Source: Myxococcota bacterium
GTDB taxonomy: Bacteria > Myxococcota > UBA727 > VGSZ01
NCBI GenBank assembly: GCA_046593615.1
Contig: JBKJNL010000120.1
Location: forward strand, 1 to 27,333
DNA: 27,333 nt
Direction: 5' to 3'
Shown here: piece after piece, positions 12,979 through 27,333 of the stretch
How positions within the stretch are numbered: the stretch's first letter is position 1
How the letters are laid out: each line of letters begins with the position of its first letter
The notes under the pieces: generated by a model
The model's input: only the letters and a program-made list of their open reading frames with translations
Told to the model about the DNA's origin: nothing
Database searches by the model: none
Position numbers and translations under genes: made by a program

Positions 12979-13151
12979 CGCGCCCGGTCACGAGCACGGG
13001 CCCGCCCGACGGTGACGCTGGCTCCTCTGGCGGCAGCAGAAGCCCCCTCTTCTTGCAACCGAAGCGCGGAAGCTGCATCTCAGTGCCCGCCCGGTGTGCC
13101 GCCTGCGGGCCGACGACGTCGTGGACGCCGCCGCCGACGTCAAAGGAAGCC

Positions 13152-15224: not shown

Positions 15225-15284
15225 GGCGGATCGCCTGCGACGTCGACGCAGCAACGTGCCCCGGTCGCGTCGCTGCGCGCCAGC

Positions 15285-15308
15285 CGCGCGGCGAAATTTC
15301 ACCGCGCG
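15285..15308. repeat. Near-perfect 24-bp palindrome
   Basis: CGCGCGGCGAAATTTCACCGCGCG matches its reverse complement at 22 of 24 positions; intergenic, 57 nt before ATG 15366. Confidence 0.85.
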
Positions 15309-15365
15309 CCACCTCGAGGCAGCAGTTGCTGGCCAGGCCGGGGTCGAGCGGGCACATCAGCAAGC

Positions 15366-16607
15366 ATGAGCGCACCCCTTCTGCCGTCGCCGTTTTCGCC
15401 TCGCTGCTTCACCGCCATCGCGTTGTTCGTGTCGTCGTTGCTGGTGGCATGCCCATCACCGCCCACCATCGTCGACCCACCGCTCGCTGAGGGTGAGGGT
15501 GAGGGCGAAGGCGAAGGCGAAGGAGAGGGCGAAGGCGAAGCGGTCGGCGAAGGAGAAGGCGAAGCGGTCGGCGAAGGCTTCCCCGCGTGCACCGTCAGCG
15601 GCACCGCCGGCGTGACCTTCACCCGCGACGAGGGAGCGACGCTGGCGCCGACGTCGACGACGCTGTCGGGCACCGTCTACACCTATGGCCTGGCCGCGCT
15701 CGGCGACGGAAACCTCGTGGCCGAGCACGGCGGTCGCTTCTTGCGCTCGCGCGATCAGGGCTGCACCTGGACCGACCTCGGCGCAGCCCCGTTCTCGCCG
15801 ATGCGCATGAGCAGCGGCGCCGGCCGCGCCTACGCCTGGGCCGACAACAACCGCGAATTCGCCCGCATCGACGACGACGACAGCGTCCACGTGCTCACGC
15901 TCGCGCCACCGGGAGTCTGGAAGGGCCTGGCCGTCGACAGCGGCGGCGACGTCATCGCCGCCCTCGACGCGACGCTGCTGCGCTCGACCGACTTCGGCGT
16001 CACCTTTGACCGCGGCACCACACCCGCGTTCGTCGGCGACGACGCCGGCCTCGTCTACCGCGCGTTCTTCGACCCCAAGGACAGCGACCACGTCGTCGTT
16101 GGCGCCGCCACCGCCGGCGGCCGCGTCACCTTTGACGGCGGCGTCACCTGGACGGCCTCCACCGGCCTGTCGGTCTTTCCGTCGGCCACGAAGCAGAAGC
16201 GCGCGAACCTGTTCGAGGGCGTCATCTCGCCCGTCGACGGCGACGTCGTCTGGGCCGCCGGCATCGACGTCGAAGCCACCCTGCCGCCGAATGACCAGGG
16301 CAACGGCGCCCGCCACATCTACCGCTCCGGCGACGGCGGCCTGACCTTCGACGTCGTGGTCACCGCCAGCGCCGAGGTGACGATCATCAATGGACCCATG
16401 ATGGCCGCGAGCCCGTCAGACAAAGATGTCTTCTATTTCGTCTTCGGCACCTATTTCAACGACTACGGCACCGATATCTACCGCGTCGTCGTCGACGGCA
16501 CCGTCACCACCACCCACAACACGTACCACGATATATCGGCGCTGGTGTTTGCCCTGGATGATGTGGATACATTGTATCTTGGTCTGGTGAACGAAGTGAT
16601 CAACTGA
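15366..16607 (+). CDS. Lipoprotein beta-propeller with Asp-box repeats; homolog of dispase autolysis-inducing protein (DAIP)
   Basis: Lipobox LLVAC, Gly-Glu linker, Asp-boxes SRDQGCTW, STDFGVTF, TFDGGVTW, SGDGGLTF. Segments VTFTRDEGATLAPT, GTYFNDYGTDIYR and THNTYHDISAL...LYLGL match my recollection of Streptomyces mobaraensis DAIP. Confidence 0.78.
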   Translation: MSAPLLPSPFSPRCFTAIALFVSSLLVACPSPPTIVDPPLAEGEGEGEGEGEGEGEGEAVGEGEGEAVGEGFPACTVSGTAGVTFTRDEGATLAPTSTTLSGTVYTYGLAALGDGNLVAEHGGRFLRSRDQGCTWTDLGAAPFSPMRMSSGAGRAYAWADNNREFARIDDDDSVHVLTLAPPGVWKGLAVDSGGDVIAALDATLLRSTDFGVTFDRGTTPAFVGDDAGLVYRAFFDPKDSDHVVVGAATAGGRVTFDGGVTWTASTGLSVFPSATKQKRANLFEGVISPVDGDVVWAAGIDVEATLPPNDQGNGARHIYRSGDGGLTFDVVVTASAEVTIINGPMMAASPSDKDVFYFVFGTYFNDYGTDIYRVVVDGTVTTTHNTYHDISALVFALDDVDTLYLGLVNEVIN

Positions 16608-16652
16608 GCAGTCAGGCCCACAGAAGCAGGGGGGGGCGCTCAGCAGGTCTGC

Positions 16653-17933
16653 TCAGACGCGTTCGATGCGCGCGCCCAGGCCCTTGAGCCGCATCTCGAT
16701 GTTGGCGTAGCCGCGATCGATCTGCTGGGCGTTCTGGATGACGCTGCGGCCGTCGGCGACGAGCGCCGCGAGCAGCAGCGCCATGCCGGCCCGGATGTCG
16801 GGCGACGACATCGTCTGGGCGTAGAGGTGCGAGGGGCCCTCGACGATGCAGCGGTGCGGGTCGCAGACGGTGATGCGTGCGCCCATGCTGATGAGCTTGT
16901 CGACCCAGAAGAGCCGGCTCTCGTACATCCACTCGTGGATGAGCACGCTGCCCTTGCACCGCGTGGCCAGCACGACGGCGATCGAGATGAGGTCGGCGGG
17001 GAAGCCCGGCCACGGCGCGTCGTGGATGCGGGCGATGGCCCCGTGCAGACCGTGCTTGACCTCGAGCTCCTGGTCGGCCGGCACAAAGATGTCGTCGCCG
17101 CGGACCTCCCAGGTGACGCCGAGCCGGCCAAACGCCAGGGCGGTGATGCGGTGGTCGTCGGGACGCGCCTTTTGGATGAGCAGCGGCGACTTCGTCATCG
17201 CCGCCAGCGCGATGAAGCTGCCGACCTCGAGGTAGTCGGGGCCGACGTCAAAGGTGGCGCCGTGCAGCTTCTGGCGCCCCTCGACGATCAGGGTGTTGGT
17301 GCCGACCCCGTGGATGCTGGCGCCCATGGCGATGAGCAGGTTGCAGACGTCTTGCACGTGCGGCTCGCTGGCGGCGTTTCGGATCGTGGTCGTGCCCTTG
17401 GCCAACGACGCCGCCATCACGACGTTCTCGGTGGCCATGACGCTCATCTCGTCGAGAAAGATGTCGGCGCCGCGCAGCCCCTTGTCGGCGCGCATCACGT
17501 AGCGATCGGGAAAGACCTCGATGACGGCGCCGAGCTGCTGCAGCGCTGCGATGTGCGTGTCGACGGGGCGACGGCCGATGCGGTCACCGCCGGGCACGGG
17601 CAGGGTGCACGCGCCCATGCGCGCGAGCAGCGGCCCGGCGAGGGCGAAGCTGGCCCGCATCTGCCGGCACAGCTCGAGCGCCGGGGCTGTGCTCTTGATG
17701 TTCTTTGGCGTGACGGCGAAGCGGTTTTTTGCTTGTTCGACGACGTCGACGCCGATGTCCTGCAGCAGGGCCATCATGGTGTGCACGTCGCGGATGCGCG
17801 GGACGTTGCCGAGCACGACGGTGTCGTCGGTCAACACGGTGCAGGCCAGCAGGGGCAGGGCCGCGTTCTTGTTGCCCTCGACGGTGATGCTGCCCGTCAG
17901 CTTCTGCCCGCCCTCGATGATGAAGGTATCCAT
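16653..17933 (-). CDS. murA: UDP-N-acetylglucosamine 1-carboxyvinyltransferase MurA, Asp variant
   Basis: Start moved to ATG 17933 (MDTFIIEGG). Motifs GNKNAALP, MRASFALAGPL, PGGDRIGRRPVDTH, SVMATEN, NAASEPHVQD, PWPGFPAD, DIRAGMALL, IDRGY. Confidence 0.97.
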   Translation of the reverse strand: MDTFIIEGGQKLTGSITVEGNKNAALPLLACTVLTDDTVVLGNVPRIRDVHTMMALLQDIGVDVVEQAKNRFAVTPKNIKSTAPALELCRQMRASFALAGPLLARMGACTLPVPGGDRIGRRPVDTHIAALQQLGAVIEVFPDRYVMRADKGLRGADIFLDEMSVMATENVVMAASLAKGTTTIRNAASEPHVQDVCNLLIAMGASIHGVGTNTLIVEGRQKLHGATFDVGPDYLEVGSFIALAAMTKSPLLIQKARPDDHRITALAFGRLGVTWEVRGDDIFVPADQELEVKHGLHGAIARIHDAPWPGFPADLISIAVVLATRCKGSVLIHEWMYESRLFWVDKLISMGARITVCDPHRCIVEGPSHLYAQTMSSPDIRAGMALLLAALVADGRSVIQNAQQIDRGYANIEMRLKGLGARIERV

Positions 17934-18040
17934 GGTCTTTGCTGCTCCGCGTGGCTCGAGTTGGACGGCGCGCATGGTACTCCCGGAAAGGCCGCTGGCG
18001 CGGGCCGTTTGCAGCAACCAGAAAAATTCCTGACGACGTC

Positions 18041-18076
18041 GACACCGACGACGACACCGACGACGACACCGACGCC
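18041..18076. repeat. 12-bp tandem repeat GACACCGACGAC x3, intergenic
   Basis: GACACCGACGAC GACACCGACGAC GACACCGACGCC between divergent murA and the 18192 ORF. Confidence 0.8.
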
Positions 18077-18191
18077 GAAGTCGGGGGCGACCGCGTCGCT
18101 GTTGCCGTCGTGACAACGAAGCGGGTCGGCGCGCTGTTCCGCAAACGAAGGGTTGAGGTTCGCTGCGCGTGCGCTGCATCATCCGCCCCCG

Positions 18192-18500
18192 ATGGACGAG
18201 AGCGCCCAGGAATTCTGGTGCTACAAGCGCGGCCTGCTGGTGCTGCGTTTCTTGTCGTCGTCAGGCGTGTTCGTGCCGACCAAAGGACCGCTGCCACCCG
18301 AGCGCGATCCCGAAGGCCTGATGAAGCCCTGCACCTTTGCCTCCGGCCAGTTTCTCTCGGTGGAATGGGAGCCGCGGGTGCGTCTGCTGCTCGACCGCTC
18401 GCAAGACCTGGTCGAGCTCATCGAGCTCCTCGAGGATCGCCGCTACGAGGTCGACCTCGAGCCGCCGTCGAAAAAGGCCCGCCCCTTCCGCTTTCTGTGA
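18192..18500 (+). CDS. Small hypothetical protein (102 aa)
   Basis: ATG 18192 (MDESAQEFWCYKRGLL...); normal globular composition and G/C-ending codons; no family recognised. Confidence 0.65.
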   Translation: MDESAQEFWCYKRGLLVLRFLSSSGVFVPTKGPLPPERDPEGLMKPCTFASGQFLSVEWEPRVRLLLDRSQDLVELIELLEDRRYEVDLEPPSKKARPFRFL

Positions 18501-18589
18501 GCGCCGGTCGCGCGTTGATCCTTGCGGCCGGTGACCGTGTCGCTCTGCGCGCCGTGCAACCCGCGGACGCCGCCGGGCATCTCAACGGC

Positions 18590-19135
18590 ATGCGCCATTC
18601 TTTCTGCATCCCGCTTTTGCTGGCCTCGGCGTTCGCCTTTGCTTGCCAGCCCACCACCACCGAGCGGCTCGGGCTCGGTCCGGTCGAGACCGTCGAAGGT
18701 CTCGAGCTCGATCGCTACCTCGGTCGCTGGTTCGAGATCGGCAACTACCCGACGTCGTTCCAGGAGGGATGCAGCGAGACGACAGCCGAATACTCACTGA
18801 AGGACGACGGTGACATCGAGGTTCGCAACAACTGCACCGTCGACGGCGGGCCCAACGAGGCCGTCGGCGTCGCGCGCGCGGTCGACCTCGACGCCGGCAA
18901 GCTCGAGGTCAGCTTCTTTGGCCCCTTCTTTGGCGACTACTGGGTCGTCGAGCTGGGCGAGGAAGGCGGCGAAGAAGCTCCCTACAGCTACGCCGTCGTG
19001 ACGTCCCCGAGCCGTGACTTCCTCTGGGTGCTCTCGCGTGAGCCGACGATGGCTGACGCGACCCTCGACGGCATCTTTGAACGGCTCGACGAGCAATCCA
19101 TCGATCGCGAGCGCTTCGTTCTCACCGAGCAGTGA
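18590..19135 (+). CDS. blc: Outer-membrane lipoprotein lipocalin (Blc family)
   Basis: Start moved to ATG 18590; lipobox AFAC; LDRYLGRWFEI (lipocalin GxW motif), TTAEYSL, GKLEVSFFGPFFGDYWV, LWVLSREP. Confidence 0.9.
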   Translation: MRHSFCIPLLLASAFAFACQPTTTERLGLGPVETVEGLELDRYLGRWFEIGNYPTSFQEGCSETTAEYSLKDDGDIEVRNNCTVDGGPNEAVGVARAVDLDAGKLEVSFFGPFFGDYWVVELGEEGGEEAPYSYAVVTSPSRDFLWVLSREPTMADATLDGIFERLDEQSIDRERFVLTEQ

Positions 19136-19196
19136 CCGAGCAGGCACGCCGCGTTCGGGCTCCACGGCGCCGTGCACTTCAGCTAGGGTGCCCGCC

Positions 19197-20708
19197 ATGA
19201 TTGTGAGCGTGTTGACGGCGCTGCTGGTGGCACAGCTCGAGGTCGGGAATCCGGCGCCCCCCGATCCCCCCGCGGGCGGGGCGGCGGCGGCGCTCTCGGA
19301 CCCTGCGGGGGCTCCGCCGGCGCTGCCGAGCGATGCCCAGCTCAAGGCGATGGCCGAACAAGACATCGAGGCGGCGCGGGCGCCGTTGCGGCGGGCGGCG
19401 CGGACGGCGCCGACGGCAGCCACCCGGGCCCTGGCGCTGCGGCTGTTGGCGACGTCGGACGCGACGTCGGCCACGGGCCGCATCTGCGCCCGCTCGTTGC
19501 GGCTCGATGCCGATCCGCTGGTGCGCCGCTCAGGCGCCGAGTGCCTCGGTCGAATCGGGCCGCGCTTGTCGTCGGCGTACACGGCGGCGCTGACGGCGGC
19601 CCTGACCGACGGCTCCCTCGACGTCGTCACCATGGCCGGCTGGGCCCTCGCCAACGTCGGTGACGCCGGCGCGGTCAGAGACGTTGCCGCCCTCGTCGGC
19701 CACCCCGACGCGCGCGTGGGCCGGCTGTTTCGCGGCTACGCCGAGCGCATGCGCGACCGGCTCGGGCTCAGCTACGCGCTCAAAGCGCCTGTCGAAAACG
19801 GCGTCGCCGGATCCGCCGACGAGCCCACGGCGATCCCGCCCGGCGTGGCCCTCACGTTCCCCGGCCGCGGCCTCGACGTCGCCAGCTCCGCCGGCTGGCT
19901 CGGCGTCTACGGCGCCATGGCCGGTTGGTTCCACGGTCCGTTCTTGCTGGCGGCCCACGGCGGCGAAGGCGGCGCCCAGGCCGGATCACTCGCCGGGCTC
20001 GGTCTCGCGGCCATCGGCGCGGCCTCGTTGTCGGGCTACGGCTACGCCCGCGCCGACTCGTTGCCCCTGGCCCACACCGTCGTGCAGCTCGGCACCCTTG
20101 GCGGCCTCGCCGGCTACGGCGGCGGACAGCTCGTGGGCTTCGCGCCGACGTCGGCGATCGCCGCGGCCAACCTCTCGCTGGTCGGCACCCTGGTCGGCAC
20201 CGGCGTCGGCATGGCGCTCGTCGAGACGCGTCCGCCGACCCTCGGGGCGCTGTCGGCGGGCATGACCGCGGCGGTGTTGGTGGGCGCGTCGTCGGGCGCG
20301 CTGGCGGCGAGCTACGGGTATCCGTTCGACCACACCCTCGGCGTCATGCTGGCCACCGGCGGCGTCGCCGGCGGCGCCACCACGGTGCTGTTGGCGTCGC
20401 AGGACATCGGCCTGTTCCCGACCGCGGGCGCCGGCGTCGGCGGTCTGGTCGGCGGCGGCGCCGCGGCCCTGACCATGGCCCTCGTCGAGTCGAACGGCAC
20501 GACGACGGAGAAGACCGGCTGGGTCATCGTCTCCGGCTTCGCCACCGGTGCTGCCCTCGGCGGCATCGGCGGTTGGCTGTTGCCGCGCGAGCGCGATCCG
20601 CTGCTGGCCGGCACGCTCAAGCTCGATCCGCCGGTGCTCGGCCTGCTGCCCGCGGGCGGCCTGCGCCGTGACCCGACGCCGGTGGCCATGATCAGCGGCA
20701 CGTTCTGA
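19197..20708 (+). CDS. Exported HEAT-repeat protein with a Gly-rich multi-helix hydrophobic C-terminal domain
   Basis: Start moved to ATG 19197. HEAT-like DADPLVRRSGAECLGRIG and LDVVTMAGWALANVGD; about 8 Gly/Ala-rich hydrophobic segments; ends PVAMISGTF. Confidence 0.72.
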   Translation: MIVSVLTALLVAQLEVGNPAPPDPPAGGAAAALSDPAGAPPALPSDAQLKAMAEQDIEAARAPLRRAARTAPTAATRALALRLLATSDATSATGRICARSLRLDADPLVRRSGAECLGRIGPRLSSAYTAALTAALTDGSLDVVTMAGWALANVGDAGAVRDVAALVGHPDARVGRLFRGYAERMRDRLGLSYALKAPVENGVAGSADEPTAIPPGVALTFPGRGLDVASSAGWLGVYGAMAGWFHGPFLLAAHGGEGGAQAGSLAGLGLAAIGAASLSGYGYARADSLPLAHTVVQLGTLGGLAGYGGGQLVGFAPTSAIAAANLSLVGTLVGTGVGMALVETRPPTLGALSAGMTAAVLVGASSGALAASYGYPFDHTLGVMLATGGVAGGATTVLLASQDIGLFPTAGAGVGGLVGGGAAALTMALVESNGTTTEKTGWVIVSGFATGAALGGIGGWLLPRERDPLLAGTLKLDPPVLGLLPAGGLRRDPTPVAMISGTF

Positions 20709-20709
20709 G

Positions 20710-20741
20710 GCGCTGACGCGCTGACTCGCTGACTCGATGAG
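20710..20741. repeat. 8-bp tandem repeat (G/T)CGCTGAC between convergent genes
   Basis: GCGCTGAC GCGCTGAC TCGCTGAC TCGATGAG read directly. Confidence 0.8.
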
Positions 20742-20756
20742 CGCTACGACCGGCTG

Positions 20757-21857
20757 TCAGCGTCGACGTCGTCGACAAAAGGCCAGCAACGCCAGCGCCA
20801 GCGCCGACACGCCGCCGTGGACGCCGCGGCAGCCGCAGCTCTCGGGGGCGGCGACGCCGTCTGCGCCTTCGCCTTCGCCCTCGCCGGTTTCGTCGGGCTC
20901 GCCTTCGCCTTCTGCGGCGGCGGCAGCGTCGACGACGAAGCCGCTGGGAAAGACAAAGATGTCGGCGCCGCGTTGGGCGATCACGTCATACGTGCCGGCC
21001 GACAACGACGACGGCAGGCGTCCGCGCACGGCGCCGGCGCTGTCGACGACGGCGGCCGCGAGCGGTTGTGGGCCGAGCCGCACGGTGGTGTCGGCGGTGA
21101 AGCCGCTGCCGAGGACGACGACGTCGACGCCGCTGCCCGCGTTGGCCCGTGCCGGGATGATGCTCGTGACGGTGAGGACCGCGCCTTCGCCTTCGCCCTC
21201 GGCGGCTTCGCCCTCGCCTTCGCCTTCGCCTTCGCCCTCGCCTTCGCCGCCGCTGGGGACGAAGCGGCAAAAGGAGTCGTCGAGCGGCACGTCGGTCTCG
21301 ATGATCGCCCGGAAGATCCAGTCGCCGTCGACACCGAGGGCGTCGTTGTCGTACCAGCCCGGGCCGCCGAGCCCGTTGGGCGTGAAAATCACCGATTTGG
21401 CGTCGAGGCCGTCGGCGTCGCGGGCGATGCCGGGGAAGCCGTTGGTCCGGTAGACGAGCGACACCCAGAACTGGCCCGACAGCGCCAGCGTCGGCGACAC
21501 CGCGATCTCCGAGAAGTCGGTGTCGCTGTCGATGACCGGCGCGTCGCCGTCGTAGAGGACGGTGCCCGGGTAGCCGTCGGTGGCAAAGACGTCGCTGCCG
21601 TCGGGGGCGTAGACGCGCAGGCCTTCGGTGAGCCCCAAGCCGGGCGTGTCGCTGCCGCCCCAGGCGATGAGCATGCGCAGCAACGTCGCGCCGGCGGGGG
21701 GCGTGAAGCGCACGGCGGCCTCTTCGCCGACGACGAAGCCGCCCTGAAACGCCAACGCGTCGCCGGGGTTGTAGGAGTCCGAGCAGAGGATCCGCTCTTC
21801 GGCCGAGGCTGCGGGCGCGAACAGAGCAACGGCGAACAGCAGGCAGGTGGCACGCAT
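20757..21857 (-). CDS. Surface protein with a beta-sandwich domain, Gly-Glu linkers, IPT/TIG domain and MYXO-CTERM sorting signal
   Basis: Signal peptide MRATCLLFAVALFAPAASA; LTVTSIIPARANAGSGVDVVVLGSGF (IPT/TIG pattern); C-terminal SCGCRGVHGGVSALALALLAFCRRRRR. Confidence 0.85.
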   Translation of the reverse strand: MRATCLLFAVALFAPAASAEERILCSDSYNPGDALAFQGGFVVGEEAAVRFTPPAGATLLRMLIAWGGSDTPGLGLTEGLRVYAPDGSDVFATDGYPGTVLYDGDAPVIDSDTDFSEIAVSPTLALSGQFWVSLVYRTNGFPGIARDADGLDAKSVIFTPNGLGGPGWYDNDALGVDGDWIFRAIIETDVPLDDSFCRFVPSGGEGEGEGEGEGEGEAAEGEGEGAVLTVTSIIPARANAGSGVDVVVLGSGFTADTTVRLGPQPLAAAVVDSAGAVRGRLPSSLSAGTYDVIAQRGADIFVFPSGFVVDAAAAAEGEGEPDETGEGEGEGADGVAAPESCGCRGVHGGVSALALALLAFCRRRRR

Positions 21858-21937
21858 CTCTCGAGGTTACCGGGCCTCCAGAACGCCGCGCAGATCCCCC
21901 GTTTCGTTGCATGTGCGGCTTGGTAGGCACGACGTCG

Positions 21938-24900
21938 ATGTTGCCCCCATCCGTCGTCGCCACGCCCCTCTTTGCTCGCGCGCAAACGCTGCTCTGCGCG
22001 CTGGTGATCGCCTGCGCGTTCGGGGGCGCGCCCGCGCTGCGGGCCGAGGTGATCCTCCAGTACTTCGAGACGTCGTGGAGCGAGGTCGAAGCCCGCGTCC
22101 CCGAGATCAAAGCCGCCGGCTACGACGCCTTGTGGTTGCCGCCGCCGACCAAGGGCACCGAAGGCGTCCGCGACGTCGGCTTCGCCGTCTACGACCGCTT
22201 CGACCTCGGTGACCGCGACCAGCGCGGCACCACCGCCACGCGCTACGGCACGCACGCCGAGCTGCAGGCGCTGGTCGAGACCGCGCACCGCTTCGGCCTG
22301 CGCGTCTACTTCGACGTCGTCATGAACCACCATGGCAACCCGCAGACCATCGAAAACGTCGGCGTCACCGAAGCCGACATCGGCGGCATGGCTGAGCTCG
22401 GCGGGGCCGCTGGCTTCCCCGGGACGTCGGTGTGGGACTTCCATGTGCTGCCTGCGCGCGTGCCCGGCGACGGCCGCTGCCCCGACGACAACAACGCCAG
22501 CGGTTGCGAATTCTGCGCGCGCCAGCCCGCCGAAGCCAGCGCCAACGACGTCTTTGGCGGCCTGCAGTGGCGCGTCGCCAACGACAACGCCGGCAGCGGC
22601 GCCGAGGTCTGCATCAGGCGCGACGGCGGCGAGCTGCGCGTGGCCTCGTTGACCATCGCCGAGGCCATGGCCGATTCGGGCGCGCCGTCGTCGTTGCCGG
22701 GCTACTTCGCCGGCTACACCCACGTGGTGCGCGCGCCTCGCATGGACGACTTCGCCGACTTCGGCTTCGAGGTGACGAACTGGTCGCTGCTGGGCCTGCA
22801 CGACCTCGCCACCGAGCAGTACGCCAACGGCGATGGCCCCCTCGCCAACGACGGCGACAACGCCGTGGTCGGCACCGCGCTGCCCCGCTTCACGCGCAAC
22901 GACCGCGACGCCCTCGACCGCAGCACCTACCGCTTCGGCGACGGCGTCGGCGGCGCCGCCACACCCCACGCCGAAGACACGCGCCAGTGGCTCATCCGCT
23001 GGATCCGCTGGCTCATGATGGACACCGGCGCCGACGGCTTCCGCCTCGACGCCATCAAGCACGTCTGGCCCAGCTTCTACGGCGAGGATTTCCCCGACGA
23101 CCCCATCGCGTTCAACAAGGTCATCCAGGACACCTACGACGAGCTGCATGCCTTTACCGACGTCGACGACTTCGACCTCGTCGACGACGCCGCCATCTTT
23201 GGCGAAGACTTCACCGGCAGCTGCGACGCCTTGAGGCCCTACATCGTCGGCGGGCAGCGGGCCCTCGACTTCCCGTTGTTCTTCAACATCGGCGGGCGCA
23301 GCGGCCTGTTCAGCGGCGACATCGGCCAGCTCTCTGAAAAGGCGCCACCGGGGTGCCCAGGCATCGGCGCCTTTGGCGGGCTGAACCGCTTGAGCGGCAT
23401 CGGCTTTGTGCAGTCGCACGACGAGTGCGGCGCTCCCGGTGGCGCGTTCGCGGCCAGCAACCGCGACCCGCGCTTCTCGCGCTGCGAGGTCGACGGCGGC
23501 TACCGCAGCGGCGCCACCGACCTCAGCCACGCCTTTGTGCTCACGCGCGACGCCGACAGCGCGGTCTTCTACGACGGCAACAACTGGACCTCCGACAGCT
23601 TCGTCCGCTCGGGCCGCGCCGACGCGCTCGGCGAGACGTTCTCGGGCAGCGCCCAGCTCGAGCTGGTGACGACGGTGCGCGCCGCCCGCCGCATCGCCCG
23701 CGGCACGATGGACAACCTCTGGGTCGGCGACAACGCCTGGGCCTACGAGCGCGACGTCGCTGGACCAGCTGGCGCGAAGCTGGCCGCCGGCCTCGTCGTG
23801 CTCAACGACGGACAAGGGGGCGACGTGGGCTTCGGCGACGACGCCAACCAGGGCTCGTTCATCGTCACGCGCTTTCCGCCCGGCACCTTTCTCGAAGACA
23901 TCAGCGGCAACGGCCAGTTCGCCGCCAGCTTGACCGTGCTCGACCCCGACCTGCTGCCCGTCGCCGAGCAGCCCGAGGTCAGCGAGGCCCGCCGCCGCTT
24001 CTCTGTCGTCAACGACGGCGCCAGCACCGCCGGCCTCGGCGTCGTCTTTGCCGGCGTGCCGGCGCGTTCGTGGGTGATGTTTGCGCCGCCGGCCTTTGCG
24101 GCAGGCAGCGAGGTCACCCTTGAGCTGAAGGACATCCCGCTCGCGTCGCTGTCGCCGGGCGTGCACGCCCTGCACGTGCGCTTCGTCCGCGCCGTCGACG
24201 GCGCCGCTGACGCCCACGACGAATTGGTGCTCTCGCTGTGCGTGCCGCTGGCTGGCGACGCTTCGCTGTGCGGGCCGGTTGCCAGCGGGGCCGGCGGGGT
24301 GAGCGTGCCCGCCGGCGACCCCATCGCCAGCGGCACCGTCGCCTTGCTCGTCGACGGCACCGTGCCCGAGCGCCGCAGCGTCGAGACCGCGCCCGGCCGA
24401 CTCCTGCCCGACAACGCTCCCGTGGCCCGCGCGGTCGAGCACCTGGTGGTCGTCGACGGTGACGCCCTCGACGTCGTCGTCAATACCGCGGCGCTGCGGG
24501 CGCCCACGCTGGTGGCCATCCGCCTCGACGACGATGCCGAGCTCGTGCCGGGCACGCCCATCCGGGCCTCGGCCGAGCGCTTCGTCGACGGCTTCGTGCG
24601 CCTGCGCCTGCCGGGTGAGCCGGGCGAAGGCGAGGGCGAGGGAGAAGGCGAGGCGGGCGAGGGCGAAGGCGAAGCCGTCGGTGAAGGCGAAGGCGAAGGC
24701 GCCGAAGGAGAAGGCGAAGGCGAAGGCGAGGTCGACCCCGACGGCGACGACGACAGCGATGGCGTCAACAACGGCGACGACGTGTGCCCGCTGGTGCGCG
24801 ATGCCGATCAACAGGACTTCGACGAAGACGGCGTCGGCGATGCCTGCGACCGCTGCCCCGACGTCATCGGCAGCGACGTCACCGGCTGTCCGGCGCTGTC

Positions 24901-25051
24901 GCCCGACGAGCGGGCCACCGTGAATGCCATTGCCCTGGCCATCGCGCTGCGCAGCGCCGCCACCCCGGCCACCGACGTCGACGACAATGCCATCGTCGAC
25001 ATCCTCGACCTCGACCAGGCGATCGCCGCCGCCATCGAGAAGGAAAACTGA
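21938..25051 (+). CDS. Secreted multidomain GH13 alpha-amylase family enzyme with Gly-Glu linker, TSP3 repeats and a C-terminal dockerin-like Ca loop
   Basis: Likely start ATG 21938 (signal peptide ending ALRA). GH13 regions I-IV intact: DVVMNH (22313), GFRLDAIKH (23036), GEDF (23201), QSHD (Asp at 23420). VGFAVYDRFDLG...RYGT resembles GH13_5 amylases. TSP3 pattern DSDGVNNGDDVCP...DFDEDGVGDACD; DVDDNAIVDILDL at 24974-25012. Confidence 0.92.
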   Translation: MLPPSVVATPLFARAQTLLCALVIACAFGGAPALRAEVILQYFETSWSEVEARVPEIKAAGYDALWLPPPTKGTEGVRDVGFAVYDRFDLGDRDQRGTTATRYGTHAELQALVETAHRFGLRVYFDVVMNHHGNPQTIENVGVTEADIGGMAELGGAAGFPGTSVWDFHVLPARVPGDGRCPDDNNASGCEFCARQPAEASANDVFGGLQWRVANDNAGSGAEVCIRRDGGELRVASLTIAEAMADSGAPSSLPGYFAGYTHVVRAPRMDDFADFGFEVTNWSLLGLHDLATEQYANGDGPLANDGDNAVVGTALPRFTRNDRDALDRSTYRFGDGVGGAATPHAEDTRQWLIRWIRWLMMDTGADGFRLDAIKHVWPSFYGEDFPDDPIAFNKVIQDTYDELHAFTDVDDFDLVDDAAIFGEDFTGSCDALRPYIVGGQRALDFPLFFNIGGRSGLFSGDIGQLSEKAPPGCPGIGAFGGLNRLSGIGFVQSHDECGAPGGAFAASNRDPRFSRCEVDGGYRSGATDLSHAFVLTRDADSAVFYDGNNWTSDSFVRSGRADALGETFSGSAQLELVTTVRAARRIARGTMDNLWVGDNAWAYERDVAGPAGAKLAAGLVVLNDGQGGDVGFGDDANQGSFIVTRFPPGTFLEDISGNGQFAASLTVLDPDLLPVAEQPEVSEARRRFSVVNDGASTAGLGVVFAGVPARSWVMFAPPAFAAGSEVTLELKDIPLASLSPGVHALHVRFVRAVDGAADAHDELVLSLCVPLAGDASLCGPVASGAGGVSVPAGDPIASGTVALLVDGTVPERRSVETAPGRLLPDNAPVARAVEHLVVVDGDALDVVVNTAALRAPTLVAIRLDDDAELVPGTPIRASAERFVDGFVRLRLPGEPGEGEGEGEGEAGEGEGEAVGEGEGEGAEGEGEGEGEVDPDGDDDSDGVNNGDDVCPLVRDADQQDFDEDGVGDACDRCPDVIGSDVTGCPALSPDERATVNAIALAIALRSAATPATDVDDNAIVDILDLDQAIAAAIEKEN

Positions 25052-25053
25052 TC

Positions 25054-25515
25054 ATGCTGGTCCTGCGCGCTCTCTTGCTTGGCGGGCTCTGGTCCGGGGG
25101 CCTGCTCTCCTTGGGCTCGTGCTCGTGCGACCCGCCGCCGGTTCCGCCGCCCGCGGTCACTGCCGCTGGCAGCGTGCGCGTCGACGCTGGCGCCGACACC
25201 GGCGCGGTCAGCGTCGTGCTGGTCGGCCTCGATCAGCCGCTGCGCGCGTTTCAGGTCGACGTCGACGTCGCCGGCGGCAACGCGCTGGCGGCCCTCGGCG
25301 TCGGGCCCGACATCGTCGAAGCCGGCCTTGCGCCCGAAGACGGCGGCCCGAAGAACCGCTTCACGCTCGTCGTCTCCGACACGCGCCGGCTGCCGCTGAA
25401 CAACGGCGTCGTCGGCCGCCTGGCCATCGACAACGGCGCGACCGTCACGCTGACAAAGGCGTTTGGCATCGACCAGCAGGGCCAGAAGCGCCCGCTCACC
25501 GTGGTGGCCCCGTGA
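25054..25515 (+). CDS. Small lipoprotein with a cohesin-like beta-sandwich
   Basis: Start moved to ATG 25054, 2 nt after the amylase stop, with AGAAGGA upstream; lipobox LGSC, Pro linker. VSVVLVGLDQPLRAFQVDVDV, FTLVVSD...LNNGVVGRLAI and VTLTKAFGIDQQG follow the cohesin strand pattern. The ORF is solid; the cohesin call is by eye. Confidence 0.62.
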   Translation: MLVLRALLLGGLWSGGLLSLGSCSCDPPPVPPPAVTAAGSVRVDAGADTGAVSVVLVGLDQPLRAFQVDVDVAGGNALAALGVGPDIVEAGLAPEDGGPKNRFTLVVSDTRRLPLNNGVVGRLAIDNGATVTLTKAFGIDQQGQKRPLTVVAP

Positions 25516-27333
25516 AGCGCGCGCAACGACAGCTCCAGATCCTCGCGGCTTTTGTCGTCGTCACGGCGCTGGTGCCGGCGTGCGGGCCGGCCTGCGGCGT
25601 CGGCGACTTCGTGCCCACGCCCGAAGCCGAAGCCGTCATCACCGGCACGGTCACCGACGTCCCCGAGGCGCTGCGCGCACGGGCCTCGGGCCGCACGCTG
25701 ACGGCGCGGGCGGTCTCGGTCGATGGCGCCGTGCTCGCCGAGGTGCAGACCGGCATCGACGAGAGCTTCACGCTGGCGCTGGGCAAGGGCCTCGATCACT
25801 TCAACGTCCGCGTCGTCGTCGAAGGCGGCTCGTTCGTGGCCAAGGACTTCGTCGCCGAGGCCGCCGCCGGCTCGAGCGTGACCCGCGACGACATGGGCGT
25901 GGCCTCGACGGCCGCGGCCCAGGTGGTCGAGCGCTACGCGGTGCGCGAGCGCCAGTCGTTGGCGTCGACCCCCACCGGCACCCTGCAGGCCGTGCTCGAC
26001 AACGCCCGCGGCCGCGGCGCCGGGGGCGACGACAGCGCCGTCGTCGCCTTTCGCGCCCTCGTCGGCGACGTCTTTGCCGTGCTCGATCCGGCCGGTGGCG
26101 AGCCGGGCTTCGATCGCACCTCGTCCGACGCCAACGACGACGTCCTCGCCGTAGCCGGCGTCGACGCCGCCGACTACGACGCCGCCCTCGAAGCCGCCGT
26201 CGACGCGGCCCTGGTGCCCATCGTCTGCGACCCGAGCCAGGTGAATGTGTTGTTCGCCGTCGACGCCAGCGGGCAGGGCAAGGACGGCAATGGCGCGGCC
26301 CAGTTCATCCGCCAGGCCCCCAAGGAGGGAAAGGTCTTTCTCGGCATCACCCTCGACACGTCGTCGCCAGTGCCGGACTCGGCCGGTGCGCTGCGTCCGC
26401 GCCTGACGCCCAACGATCCCCAGACCGAGATGTTCGACGACGGCGGCGCCCCCTCAGGCAGTGGAGACGAGGTGGCCGGCGATGGGATTTTTTCGACGGT
26501 GCTCGGCCTGCCGCGCGGGATGCGCGTGCTCTACAAATACACAGACGGCTCGCCCAACGAGGGCTTCACCAGCACCGAGGAATGGCCCGGTAACGCCCGC
26601 ATCCTGCAGGTCGACGATGTTCTGACGTCGTCGCAGTCGGGGCAGCCCGATTGCCTGGTCATCCGCCGCGACTCGTTTGGTGACGAGAGCAGCAACAAGA
26701 ATTTCGTGAACCTCAACGCCCGGCTCGGCGGTGGTGCCCTCGGCTACGACGACGACCTCGGCGGCGGCGCGCTCACGCCCGTGTCGGCCGACGACGCTGC
26801 CGCGGGCCTGCTGCCCAACGCCGGCCTCGCCGTCGGCGATGTGCGCACCGAGGCGCCGCTGACGCCGGCCGGCATCGCCGAGGCCCGCGAAAACGGCGTG
26901 TGCACGGTGTGCCCGGCGCCGCTGACGGTGTCGGCCGACGACGACGACGCGCCCCGGCTGGTGGCCGCGCAGTTCGTCGGCGTCGATGAGACGCGCGTGG
27001 TGTTCTCGGAAGATGTCGACGTGCAGAGCGCCGGGCTCGCGAGCAATTTCCTGCTCGTCAACGCCGACAACGACGCCGTGCGCGTGCTCGCGGTGCAGGT
27101 CATCGGTGCCCAGGTGGTGCTCACCCACGAGCGCGTGGACCCGCGCGTCGCCCACCGGGTGTCGGTCAAGGGCGTCACCGACGCCTCGCTGCAGCAGAAT
27201 CCGATCGCCGAGCGCTCGTCGGTGCCGGTCGGTCCCGACCGCACGCCGCCGACCGTGGTCTCGGTGCGCGGCGGCTCGATCGTCGAGGTCAACCCCGCTT
27301 CGCGCCCCGGCGACGCCGTCACCGGCGAGGTCT
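25512..27333 (+). CDS. Large probable lipoprotein with a choice-of-anchor X/CBM-like module and Ig-like domains (3' end beyond window)
   Basis: Not in the ORF track; translated by hand from GTG 25512 (GTGA overlap) with no stop to the edge, over 600 aa. MKRAQRQLQILAAFVVVTALVPAC; MFDDGG...GDEVAGDGIFSTVLGLPRGMRVLYKYTDG...EEWPGNARILQV from 26430; PRLVAAQFVGVDETRVVFSEDVD...SNFLL and DRTPPTVVSV Ig-like (SbsA/Big_5-type) starts. Confidence 0.8.
   Translation, partial: MKRAQRQLQILAAFVVVTALVPACGPACGVGDFVPTPEAEAVITGTVTDVPEALRARASGRTLTARAVSVDGAVLAEVQTGIDESFTLALGKGLDHFNVRVVVEGGSFVAKDFVAEAAAGSSVTRDDMGVASTAAAQVVERYAVRERQSLASTPTGTLQAVLDNARGRGAGGDDSAVVAFRALVGDVFAVLDPAGGEPGFDRTSSDANDDVLAVAGVDAADYDAALEAAVDAALVPIVCDPSQVNVLFAVDASGQGKDGNGAAQFIRQAPKEGKVFLGITLDTSSPVPDSAGALRPRLTPNDPQTEMFDDGGAPSGSGDEVAGDGIFSTVLGLPRGMRVLYKYTDGSPNEGFTSTEEWPGNARILQVDDVLTSSQSGQPDCLVIRRDSFGDESSNKNFVNLNARLGGGALGYDDDLGGGALTPVSADDAAAGLLPNAGLAVGDVRTEAPLTPAGIAEARENGVCTVCPAPLTVSADDDDAPRLVAAQFVGVDETRVVFSEDVDVQSAGLASNFLLVNADNDAVRVLAVQVIGAQVVLTHERVDPRVAHRVSVKGVTDASLQQNPIAERSSVPVGPDRTPPTVVSVRGGSIVEVNPASRPGDAVTGEV

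What the first reader, a model, noticed from the sequence alone, without database searches (positions are those of the whole stretch)
21938..27333. Candidate amylosome-like surface complex: dockerin-tailed GH13 amylase, cohesin-like lipoprotein and glucan-binding-type lipoprotein in one coupled operon
Seen: three genes coupled by a 2-nt gap and a GTGA overlap. The amylase ends in D-V-D-D-N-A-I-V-D-I-L-D (24974-25009), with Asp/Asn at loop positions 1, 3, 5, 9 and 12, followed by a short helix. The next gene is a lipoprotein that is almost entirely one beta-sandwich with a cohesin-like pattern. Established: that loop pattern is the dockerin Ca-binding motif, and cohesin-dockerin pairs assemble cellulosomes and the Ruminococcus bromii amylosome. 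Inference: the secreted amylase is tethered to the membrane through the cohesin-like lipoprotein, and the third protein captures alpha-glucan (starch or prey glycogen). I know of no such assembly described in Myxococcota. Caveat: only one Ca loop is visible, whereas canonical dockerins have two.
Basis: partly seen in the sequence, partly recalled or inferred. Interest (0 to 1): 0.85.

Follow-up and report, generated by a model that had tools for sequence, protein, structure and literature searches.

The report
Amylase docked to a lipoprotein socket
A soil myxobacterium encodes a starch-cutting enzyme whose tail looks like a shortened "dockerin" plug, immediately followed by a small lipid-anchored protein with the matching "cohesin" socket fold, so the enzyme is most likely hung on the cell membrane by a docking pair until now known mainly from Gram-positive cellulose and starch degraders.

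Summary
The core reading holds up in silico. The 153-aa lipoprotein models confidently as a cohesin: its top 16 matches among solved structures are all cohesins (Z up to 13.8, first non-cohesin 8.7). No sequence profile detects this. The amylase tail is a conserved helix, Ca-loop, helix module. Its best structural matches are dockerins lacking the first loop, but the scores are weak. A distant orthologue reaches Pfam Dockerin_1 just under threshold. A complex prediction scored 0.92 against 0.04 for the best control, with contacts on cohesin strands 3, 5, 6 and 8. In 401 Myxococcota genomes, the tail and the lipoprotein both scored strongly in the same 11 genomes. They are adjacent there, and in the four distant pairs examined as well.

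Two parts are not supported. The third protein shows no glucan-binding signal. "Amylosome" overstates a one-plug, one-socket pair. Surface versus periplasmic location and calcium dependence remain untested.

This is a new variant of a known kind. The scan noted lipid-anchored cohesins and dockerin-tagged amylases before in other phyla, but not this family.

The parts
21938..25051 (+). Secreted GH13 alpha-amylase-like enzyme, 1037 aa (1046 aa from the alternative ATG at 21911)
   Evidence: PF00128 at 1.6e-13 and NCBIfam PRK09441 alpha-amylase at 5.5e-37. The nearest solved relatives are Bacillus-type alpha-amylases.
21938..22045 (+). Sec signal peptide with a signal-peptidase-I site (A-L-R-A | E)
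   Evidence: The A-x-A|E site just before the conserved I-L-Q-[YF]-F-E strand is kept in 8 orthologues. The Cys residues in the window's h-region are not conserved, so the enzyme itself is not a lipoprotein. Read by eye; no signal-peptide predictor was available.
22313..23425 (+). GH13 conserved regions I to IV: DVVMNH 22313-22330, GFRLDAIKH 23036-23062, IFGEDF 23195-23212, FVQSHDE 23405-23425. The insertion between regions I and II is unusually long, about 235 aa.
   Evidence: Motif positions. Region II aligns to the nucleophile motif of solved amylases. Regions III and IV were read by eye.
24611..24733 (+). Acidic (Gly-Glu)n flexible linker
   Evidence: Seen directly in the translation and conserved in orthologues.
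24734..24859 (+). Two thrombospondin type-3 Ca-binding repeats
   Evidence: phmmer to thrombospondin-2 and COMP structures at 2.4e-19. Pfam TSP_3 is sub-threshold here and over threshold in an orthologue.
24884..25048 (+). Dockerin-like C-terminal module: G-C-P-A-L-S, helix 1 (24902-24955), Ca loop (24974-25009), helix 2 (25010-25048)
   Evidence: AF2 predicts helix-loop-helix with pLDDT 86-92. The top 6 of 48,161 chains by VIA-align are dockerins, best 2vn5_B with Z 5.3 and rmsd 1.7 A over 46 residues, aligned to dockerin residues 13-61. The module is conserved. A distant orthologue scores 22.5 bits on PF00404 against a cut-off of 22.9.
25040..25044 (+). Shine-Dalgarno-like AAGGA inside the last codons of the amylase gene, 9 nt before the lipoprotein ATG
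   Evidence: Sequence. GGAGG-type sites sit at the same place in orthologous loci.
25054..25515 (+). Cohesin-fold lipoprotein, 153 aa: signal peptide plus lipobox L-G-S-C (Cys23 at 25120-25122), a second conserved Cys25, a Pro-rich stalk (25132-25152), and a nine-strand beta-sandwich (about 25165-25512)
   Evidence: AF2 mean pLDDT 89.4. Foldseek PDB top hits are cohesins, best E 3.6e-5. VIA-align gives Z 13.8 and 13.7 to C. perfringens cohesins, the top 16 are all cohesins, and the first non-cohesin is at Z 8.7. AFDB clusters are named cohesin. Lipoboxes are present in all orthologues seen.
25360..25398 (+). Family signature F-T-x-V-V-x-D-T-R-R-L-P-L (strand 6 and the following loop), at the centre of the predicted docking face
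   Evidence: F103, V106, D109 and R111 are nearly invariant. Residues 103-106, 108 and 110-112 are in the predicted interface. Interface columns are more conserved than the rest of the domain.
25512..27333 (+). 5' part (607 codons) of a lipoprotein that is about 1400 aa in relatives. It runs off the contig end.
   Evidence: A lipobox and a 4-nt overlap with the cohesin gene are conserved in 8 of 9 loci. A weak choice-of-anchor X match here is clear in the full-length orthologue, together with Big_5. No carbohydrate-binding module was detected.

Best explanation
This is a minimal, dedicated cohesin-dockerin-type docking pair in a soil Myxococcota bacterium.

Shown by the sequence:
- The GH13 alpha-amylase-like enzyme has a Sec signal peptide cut by signal peptidase I.
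- It ends in a flexible (Gly-Glu)n linker, two Ca-binding thrombospondin type-3 repeats, and a 55-residue helix, Ca-loop, helix module.
- That module corresponds to a dockerin without its first Ca loop.
- The next gene is translationally coupled to the amylase gene. It encodes a small lipoprotein that is a single cohesin-fold module on a short Pro-rich stalk.

Inferred:
- After export, the tail folds around calcium. Its two helices bind the strand 8-3-6-5 face of the lipid-anchored cohesin.
- The otherwise soluble amylase is therefore held on a membrane at a 1:1 ratio.
- The most likely site is the outer membrane and cell surface. There it would sit beside two large lipoproteins and a second GH13 enzyme anchored by a MYXO-CTERM-like tail, all encoded downstream in relatives.
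- The function would be to keep alpha-glucan (starch or glycogen) hydrolysis close to the cell.

It works like a cohesin-dockerin tether. It is not a multi-enzyme amylosome.
For: Fold of the lipoprotein:
- The AF2 model has pLDDT 89.4.
- Nearly all of the top 21 Foldseek PDB hits are cohesins.
- VIA-align gives Z 13.8 and 13.7, the top 16 hits are all cohesins, and the first other fold is at Z 8.7.
- AFDB clusters are annotated as cohesin.

Tail:
- A conserved helix-loop-helix whose loop has Asp at positions 1, 9 and 12 and Asp or Asn at 3.
- The top six VIA-align hits of 48,161 chains are dockerins, aligned to dockerin residues 13-61.
- The orthologue in G088 scores 22.5 bits on Dockerin_1 against a cut-off of 22.9. 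The one in G040 hits EF-hand_5 and Dockerin_1 weakly.

Binding:
- The complex prediction scored 0.92 in three runs, with a best control of 0.04. That mark was reached by 58 of 80 solved complexes and 2 of 110 mismatched pairs. The tool says these counts hold only roughly here, because my own alignments were used and a Ca ion rode along.
- Contacts fall on cohesin strands 3, 5, 6 and 8 and on both tail helices.
- The cohesin interface columns are more conserved than the rest of the domain (entropy 1.15 against 1.93; 0 of 10,000 random sets did as well).

Linkage:
- In a sample of 401 Myxococcota genomes, the lipoprotein (E 2.7e-27 or better) and the tail (E 2.1e-18 or better) hit the same 11 genomes, side by side.
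- Four more distant pairs (G088, G040, G011, G058) keep GH13, TSP3 and tail next to a canonical-lipobox homologue (hhalign probability 96.7 %, E 3.9e-10). Genes 3 to 5 are replaced in three of these four loci.
- The gap or overlap between the two genes is within a few nucleotides in every locus.

Precedent: functional single-Ca-loop dockerins exist (PMC12270676).

Surface context: the downstream GH13 of relatives ends in Cys-x-Cys, a transmembrane helix and an Arg-rich end. That is the architecture of MYXO-CTERM tags, which direct cell-surface anchoring (PMC11980579).
Against: - No sequence profile places either module in its family. PF00963 matches none of 39 lipoprotein family members at E up to 1. 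PF00404 does not match the window's tail.
- The tail's structural matches are weak in absolute terms (Z 5.3, where the tool warns that Z under 8 can be a common arrangement). Foldseek finds nothing significant.
- The complex score may partly reflect the model's memory of solved cohesin-dockerin complexes (caveat).
- Position 6 of the window's loop is Ala where most orthologues in the alignment have Gly.
- Only one Ca loop is present.
- Nothing here shows binding, calcium dependence, enzyme activity, or on which side of the outer membrane the pair sits.
- The family is known only from metagenome-assembled genomes.
Confidence: 0.65

Rival explanations
1. The pair docks as described, but in the periplasm. 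The lipoprotein faces the periplasm and holds the amylase there to trim imported maltodextrins or periplasmic glucans. This would be a tethered analogue of periplasmic amylases, not a surface display system.
For: The amylase has only a Sec signal, and nothing in the window shows transport across the outer membrane. Many lipoproteins of diderm bacteria face the periplasm (general knowledge). One distant locus has a MalK-type ABC sugar importer a few kb downstream.
Against: In the closest relatives the operon partners include a GH13 with a MYXO-CTERM-like surface-sorting tail and very large Ig-domain lipoproteins. That fits a surface apparatus (PMC11980579). A 1000-aa enzyme with a long flexible linker also suits polymeric extracellular substrates.
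Confidence: 0.2
2. The two proteins do not dock. The tail is just a Ca-binding EF-hand-like cap that stabilises the TSP3 repeats. The lipoprotein is an independent beta-sandwich binding module, for example for carbohydrate or another protein. The predicted interface is carried over from solved cohesin-dockerin complexes.
For: No Pfam membership for either module. Low Z for the tail. The tool warns that look-alikes of solved complexes can pass from memory. Carbohydrate-binding modules appear lower in the fold lists.
Against: Cohesins outscore every carbohydrate-binding module by 5 or more Z units. The most conserved surface of the lipoprotein is the predicted docking face. The tail and the lipoprotein are adjacent in all 15 genomes where either scored clearly and the locus was examined, even where the rest of the operon differs. 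The tight start/stop coupling is conserved.
Confidence: 0.12
3. The lipoprotein is a secretion or folding helper. It grips the amylase tail only transiently during export, like a pilotin or chaperone, rather than acting as a permanent anchor.
For: Strict 1:1 gene pairing and translational coupling are typical of enzyme and helper pairs.
Against: The fold is that of a stable docking module, not of a known pilotin. The interface lies at the far C-terminus behind a flexible linker, remote from the catalytic domain.
Confidence: 0.08

Closest known systems
Non-cellulosomal cohesin-dockerin pairs of Clostridium perfringens glycoside hydrolases (cohesins 2vo8, 2w1n, 2jh2, 2o4e; NagJ-NagH complex 2ozn)
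   Same: These are the best structural matches of the lipoprotein (Z 13.8 and 13.7). Single cohesin modules pair glycoside hydrolases outside any cellulosome. The NagH dockerin is among the tail's top six matches.
   Different: Those cohesins are modules inside large multidomain enzymes of a Gram-positive bacterium, and their dockerins have two Ca loops. Here the cohesin is a free-standing lipoprotein of a diderm bacterium, and the plug has one loop. Sequence identity is 9-18 %.
Type I cohesin-dockerin pairs of clostridial cellulosomes (1ohz, 2vn5, 2ccl, 4dh2)
   Same: Nine-strand jelly-roll socket. The plug helices are predicted to lie on strands 8-3-6-5. The loop is of dockerin type, with Asp rather than Glu at position 12. 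The tail superposes on 2vn5_B residues 13-61 at 1.7 A.
   Different: There is no first Ca loop, no internal duplication (so no dual binding mode), no scaffoldin with several cohesins, and no Pfam match.
Ruminococcus flavefaciens group-2 naturally truncated dockerins (9gvb; PMC12270676)
   Same: A functional dockerin with a single Ca-binding repeat and a helix-loop-helix shape. This shows that one loop can suffice.
   Different: In RfDoc2 the order is Ca loop, helix, loop, helix, and two copies bind one cohesin. Here the order is helix, Ca loop, helix. Stoichiometry is unknown, and the module follows TSP3 repeats.
Ruminococcus bromii amylosome (PMC4611034, PMC9112005)
   Same: GH13 amylases are positioned by cohesin-dockerin docking for alpha-glucan degradation.
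   Different: The amylosome has 26 dockerin proteins, several cohesins, scaffoldins and wall anchoring. Here one plug and one socket per genome were found, with a lipid anchor.
Bacteroides Sus-type surface amylase SusG
   Same: A GH13 enzyme is held on the outer membrane of a diderm bacterium by a lipid anchor, next to other surface lipoproteins. This is a functional analogy drawn from general knowledge.
   Different: SusG carries the lipid itself. Here the lipid would sit on a separate adaptor. No SusC/SusD-type genes were seen.

Membership tests
Cohesin (PF00963) | Nine-stranded beta jelly-roll fold of cohesin modules | tested here: met
   The AF2 model has nine strands and pLDDT 89.4. Cohesins fill the top of the Foldseek and VIA-align lists, with Z up to 13.8 against 8.7 for the first other fold.
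Cohesin (PF00963) | Match to the family's sequence profile | tested here: not met
   There was no PF00963 hit for the protein, for any of 39 family members at E up to 1, or in the whole genome. The family profile also found no cohesin among PDB sequences.
Cohesin (PF00963) | Binds a dockerin on the strand 8-3-6-5 face | tested here: inconclusive
   Predicted only. The score was 0.92 against a best control of 0.04, with contacts on strands 3, 5, 6 and 8 by strand order. Binding itself is not testable with these tools.
Dockerin (PF00404) | Two tandem 22-residue repeats, each a Ca loop plus helix | tested here: not met
   Only one canonical loop is present. The stretch before helix 1 (x-x-x-G-C-P-x-[LV]-[ST]-x-x-E) lacks the Asp/Asn ligands.
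Dockerin (PF00404) | Ca loop with Asp/Asn at positions 1, 3, 5, 9 and Asp at 12, followed by a helix | tested here: met
   The loop lies at 24974-25009. In the alignment of 11 orthologues, Asp at positions 1, 9 and 12 is invariant and position 3 is Asp or Asn. A helix follows. Calcium binding itself was not tested.
Dockerin (PF00404) | Match to the family's sequence profile | tested here: not met
   No hit for the window's tail at E up to 10, and none in the genome. A distant orthologue reaches 22.5 bits against a cut-off of 22.9, on the second repeat of the profile.
Dockerin (PF00404) | Dockerin fold | tested here: inconclusive
   The top six VIA-align matches are dockerins (rmsd 1.7 A over 46 residues), but the best Z is only 5.3. 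Foldseek found nothing significant.
Amylosome / cellulosome-type multi-enzyme complex | Several dockerin-bearing enzymes and scaffoldins with cohesins in one genome | tested here: not met
   The own genome (77 % complete) has one tail and one cohesin-like gene. Each of the 10 related genomes has one strong match to each, and one of them (G069) has an additional weak cohesin-profile match elsewhere.
GH13 alpha-amylase | Catalytic (beta/alpha)8 domain with conserved regions I-IV, including the Asp nucleophile, Glu acid/base and Asp | tested here: met
   PF00128 and NCBIfam alpha-amylase hits and PDB amylase hits. Region II aligns to solved enzymes. Regions I, III and IV were located by eye. Activity was not tested.
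Bacterial lipoprotein | Signal peptide ending in a lipobox with an invariant Cys | tested here: met
   L-G-S-C in the window. A lipobox Cys is present in all orthologues examined, including canonical L-V-S-C, F-G-A-C, L-L-A-C and A-S-A-C in distant ones. Read by eye; no predictor was available.

The most novel reading that the evidence does not exclude
A docking system invisible to Pfam is native to several families of Myxococcota. A free-standing, lipid-anchored cohesin on the outer membrane would capture a secreted enzyme through a helix, Ca-loop, helix "half-dockerin" fused to thrombospondin type-3 repeats. This would be the first cohesin-dockerin tether characterised in myxobacteria. It would also be a second, independently arranged natural single-loop dockerin, which bears on how the duplicated dockerin arose.
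Probability: 0.45. Interest if true: 0.72.

Novelty: new variant of a known kind. Interest (0 to 1): 0.62.

Why it matters
Cohesin-dockerin docking is the textbook way Gram-positive anaerobes build cellulosomes and the R. bromii amylosome. Outside them it is mostly a sequence annotation with unknown partners.

Here both partners are named by genome context. They are adjacent, translationally coupled, present once per genome, and co-inherited across several Myxococcota families. That makes the pair directly testable with two small recombinant modules.

If the pair binds, three things follow:
- It shows how an aerobic soil diderm bacterium can retain a secreted polysaccharide hydrolase on its membrane through a separate lipid-anchored adaptor.
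- It adds a second natural design of single-loop dockerin.
- It adds a compact orthogonal docking pair (about 115 and 55 residues) to the toolbox for designer enzyme assemblies.

It is also another case where structure prediction finds cohesins that profile searches miss, as recently reported for ruminococci (PMC13463774).

Tried and rejected
- Sequence searches for cohesin or dockerin membership were negative. This covers Pfam and NCBIfam on both proteins and on cut-outs, phmmer and profile searches against PDB sequences, Pfam on all 39 family members, and PF00404 and PF00963 over the whole genome.
- A profile search of 1.8 billion representatives found only 31 proteins, nearly all about 150-aa stand-alone relatives and no scaffoldin. 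Its weakest hit, P0043, is an unrelated He_PIG Ig-repeat protein. P0040 looks like a chimeric fragment with CBM_48.
- Foldseek on the tail model gave nothing significant.
- A word-based search for other proteins carrying the tail found only the amylase and one orthologue. The own genome has no second copy.
- Weak tail-profile hits were inspected in four further genomes of other families (G187, two places; G347; G232; G014). They fall in unrelated open frames with no lipoprotein after them; two resemble cysteine desulfurases by eye. They were dropped.
- I considered that the amylase is itself a lipoprotein, because of V-I-A-C in its signal peptide. I rejected this because the Cys is not conserved, whereas an A-x-A|E signal-peptidase-I site is.
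- Glucan binding by gene 3 found no support: no CBM in Pfam or NCBIfam, nothing among PDB sequences, and nothing useful in the ESM Atlas.
- The search for related loci with the deep alignment failed for lack of a conserved word. The shallower alignment worked. Its 36-residue Solirubrobacterales hit was not pursued.
- No RNA run holds the region; the three holders are soil metagenome runs whose kind is only guessed as DNA. Co-transcription therefore could not be checked.

Full report
**Observation**

The window is a whole 27.3-kb contig of a 77 %-complete metagenome-assembled genome with about 70 % G+C. The only sequencing runs that hold the region are soil metagenomes. Relatives carrying the same genes are recorded as Myxococcales or Myxococcota MAGs.

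- The amylase gene runs 21938-25051 (alternative ATG at 21911), followed by a 2-nt gap.
- A 153-codon ORF runs 25054-25515.
- A third ORF starts at GTG 25512 in a GTGA overlap and runs off the contig.
- An AAGGA site lies 9 nt before the second start.

The loop D-V-D-D-N-A-I-V-D-I-L-D sits at 24974-25009. A pattern for such loops hits only 8 times in 8.1 million residues of open frames in this genome. This is the only C-terminal hit.

**The amylase**

- Family. It matches PF00128 and NCBIfam alpha-amylase models, and Bacillus-type alpha-amylases among solved structures.
- Catalytic motifs. GH13 regions I to IV are present. Region II aligns to the nucleophile motif of solved enzymes. The segment between regions I and II is about 100 residues longer than I recall for Bacillus-type alpha-amylases; this comparison is from memory and was not tested.
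- Export. The N-terminus is a Sec signal with an A-x-A|E cleavage site conserved in eight orthologues. The Cys residues in the window's signal peptide are not conserved, so the enzyme is exported as a soluble protein.
- C-terminal modules. After residue 900 come a (Gly-Glu)n linker and two thrombospondin type-3 repeats (2.4e-19 to thrombospondin-2). The conserved tail follows.

**The tail**

I aligned 11 orthologues from three genera of the window's family and one genus of a second family. The consensus is G-C-P-x-[LV]-[ST]-x-x-E-[RQL]-A-x-[VI]-x-x-I-A-x-x-I-A, then about 9 residues, then D-x-[DN]-x-x-G-x-[VI]-D-[VI]-x-D-L-[DE]-x-A-I-x-x-A.
- Asp at loop positions 1, 9 and 12 is invariant in this alignment, and position 3 is Asp or Asn.
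- Asp rather than Glu at position 12 is the dockerin habit; this point is from my own knowledge.
- The window's copy has Ala at position 6 where most orthologues in the alignment have Gly.

AlphaFold2 gives a helix (residues 998-1012), a loop and a second helix (1031-1043), at pLDDT 86-92.

Foldseek finds nothing significant for the tail. An exhaustive VIA-align search of 48,161 chains ranks six dockerins first. The best is 2vn5_B, with Z 5.3 and rmsd 1.7 A over 46 residues. The model aligns to dockerin residues 13-61, which are helix 1, the linker, the second Ca loop and helix 3. The Z values are low for such a small module, so this is suggestive and not proof.

Pfam does not match the window's tail. 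The tail of a distant orthologue (G088) scores 22.5 bits on Dockerin_1, just below the 22.9 cut-off, on the second repeat of the profile. Another (G040) hits EF-hand_5 and Dockerin_1 weakly.

The module therefore looks like a dockerin that lacks the first Ca loop. Functional single-loop dockerins are documented in R. flavefaciens group 2, although with a different element order and two copies per cohesin (PMC12270676).

**The lipoprotein**

- Anchor. It has a signal peptide, lipobox L-G-S-C, a nearly invariant second Cys two residues later, and a Pro-rich stalk.
- Family size. The family is small. A word-based search found 10 clusters. A full HMM scan of 1.8 billion representatives found 31 proteins, nearly all about 150 aa.
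- Model. With a 39-sequence alignment, AlphaFold2 gives a nine-strand sandwich at mean pLDDT 89.4.
- Foldseek against the PDB. Nearly all of the top 21 hits are cohesins, with a best E of 3.6e-5.
- VIA-align. It gives Z 13.8 (2vo8) and 13.7 (2w1n). The top 16 hits are all cohesins and the first other fold comes at Z 8.7.
- AlphaFold DB clusters. The matching clusters are mostly named cohesin.
- Sequence profiles. No sequence method sees the relationship.

**Do they bind?**

I submitted one complex prediction with lipoprotein residues 35-153, tail residues 983-1046 and one Ca ion.
- It scored 0.92 in three runs. The controls scored 0.00, 0.00 and 0.04.
- That mark was reached by 58 of 80 solved complexes and by 2 of 110 mismatched pairs in the tool's calibration.
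- The tool warns that the counts hold only roughly here, because my own alignments and a small molecule were used. It also warns that look-alikes of solved complexes may pass from memory.

The contacts on the lipoprotein are residues 64-67, 87, 89-91, 96, 103-106, 108, 110-112, 137-139, 143 and 145. By strand order these are strands 3, 5, 6 and 8, the classical dockerin-binding face; that identification is inference from strand order. Both tail helices take part.

The cohesin interface columns are clearly more conserved than the rest of the domain (entropy 1.15 against 1.93; none of 10,000 random subsets did as well). They include the family signature F-T-x-V-V-x-D-T-R-R-L-P-L. On the tail side the difference is not significant.

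**Genomic linkage**

I searched an even sample of 401 genomes of the phylum.
- The lipoprotein profile hits 11 genomes strongly.
- The tail profile hits the same 11 at E of 2.1e-18 or better, always directly next to the lipoprotein and once per genome.
- Intermediate tail hits led to four more divergent pairs (G088, G040, G011, G058). Each has GH13, TSP3 and a tail with loops such as D-V-N-L-D-G-V-V-D-V-R-D-F.
- Each is followed by a small protein with a canonical lipobox that is homologous to the family (hhalign probability 96.7 %, E 3.9e-10).
- Weaker hits that I inspected, in other families, were spurious.
- In every locus the two genes are separated by an ATGA-type overlap or by at most a few nucleotides.

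In the window's family, in G151 of a second family and in G011, the pair is followed by three more genes:
- a lipoprotein of about 1400 aa (Big_5, choice-of-anchor X);
- a Big_5 protein of 625-740 aa;
- a GH13 of about 1330 aa with PKD and TSP3 domains, ending in Cys-x-Cys, a membrane helix and an Arg-rich tail.

The last of these is the architecture of MYXO-CTERM surface-sorting tags (PMC11980579).

In the three other distant genomes these three genes are replaced by others. One of those loci has a MalK-type ABC sugar importer nearby. The amylase and lipoprotein pair is therefore the conserved unit.

**What is not supported**

- Glucan binding by gene 3. I found no sign of it: no CBM hit, and nothing among PDB sequences or in the ESM Atlas.
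- The amylosome analogy. It fails on number. Only one plug and one socket per genome were found, and no canonical cohesin or dockerin elsewhere in this genome.
- Location. Whether the pair sits on the cell surface or in the periplasm cannot be decided from sequence.

**Comparison and novelty**

- Mechanism. The pair resembles a type-I-like cohesin-dockerin pair. The cohesin is structurally closest to the non-cellulosomal cohesins of C. perfringens glycoside hydrolases.
- Membership. It fails profile membership for both Pfam families and the two-repeat definition of a dockerin. I file it as "works like", with divergent membership at fold level.
- Literature. A full-text search for cohesin, dockerin and Myxococc* returned 22 papers. 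Of the 15 listed, I opened one and read the others by title and abstract; none described such a pair in myxobacteria.
- Known background. Non-cellulosomal cohesin and dockerin modules in many phyla are known; that is my recollection, and the paper title is cited in the papers returned. Structure-only detection of divergent cohesins has been published for ruminococci (PMC13463774).
- Earlier notes from this scan. They record a lipid-anchored cohesin in a Ruminococcus and dockerin-tagged amylases with a divergent cohesin in Muribaculaceae. They do not record this family or phylum.

**Verdict**

This is a real, conserved feature and a new variant of a known kind. It is of moderate to high interest, and a simple experiment could settle it.

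Noticed in passing
window 25120-25128; also 25581-25595: The cohesin lipoprotein has a second, nearly invariant Cys two residues after the lipobox Cys (C-x-C, in 90 % or more of 39 family members). Gene 3 also has paired Cys just after its lipobox (C-G-P-A-C here, C-G-L-E-A-C in relatives). The role is unknown; a disulfide or a second acylation site are possibilities.
   Followed up: partly
L015:1985-5995 (-), and the equivalent in L016, L018, L020, L021, L029: The fifth gene of the operon in relatives lies beyond the window's contig end. It is a second GH13 of about 1330 aa (PF00128 at 1.8e-51) with PKD and TSP3 domains and a MYXO-CTERM-like end (C-G-C, membrane helix, R-R-R-R).
   Followed up: partly
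L016:3301-8454 and the equivalent in other loci (C-terminus of gene 3, outside the window): Gene 3 orthologues end in a strongly conserved D-x-D-G-D-G-[KR]-I-V-[IVL]-[DE]-N-L-F-G-D-E-I-T-F-K-R-K-T-G-F motif. Its start resembles a shifted Ca-binding loop. I could not test whether it also docks to something.
   Followed up: no
window 24611-24733: A run of about 40 residues of Gly-Glu dipeptides links the enzyme body to the TSP3 repeats and the tail. It is conserved as a low-complexity acidic linker in orthologues.
   Followed up: no
window 22331-23035: The segment between GH13 regions I and II is about 235 residues, which I recall to be some 100 more than in Bacillus-type alpha-amylases (from memory, not tested). 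It has no Pfam match. It may be an expanded domain B or an inserted module.
   Followed up: no
window 10219-21857: Neighbouring genes by Pfam: a Ser/Thr protein kinase with a PEGA domain (10219-12978 +), an MFS transporter (13053-15224 +), a MurA-type enolpyruvyl transferase (16653-18182 -), a lipocalin-domain protein (17939-19135 +), a HEAT-repeat protein (19014-20708 +), and a TIG-domain protein divergent from the amylase (20757-21857 -). The HEAT gene and a minus-strand gene also precede the operon in G120.
   Followed up: partly
G069:C116:12256-12642: A weak second match to the cohesin-lipoprotein profile (E 1.7e-5) lies inside a 941-aa open frame elsewhere in a related genome. It may be a cohesin-like module embedded in a larger protein.
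   Followed up: no
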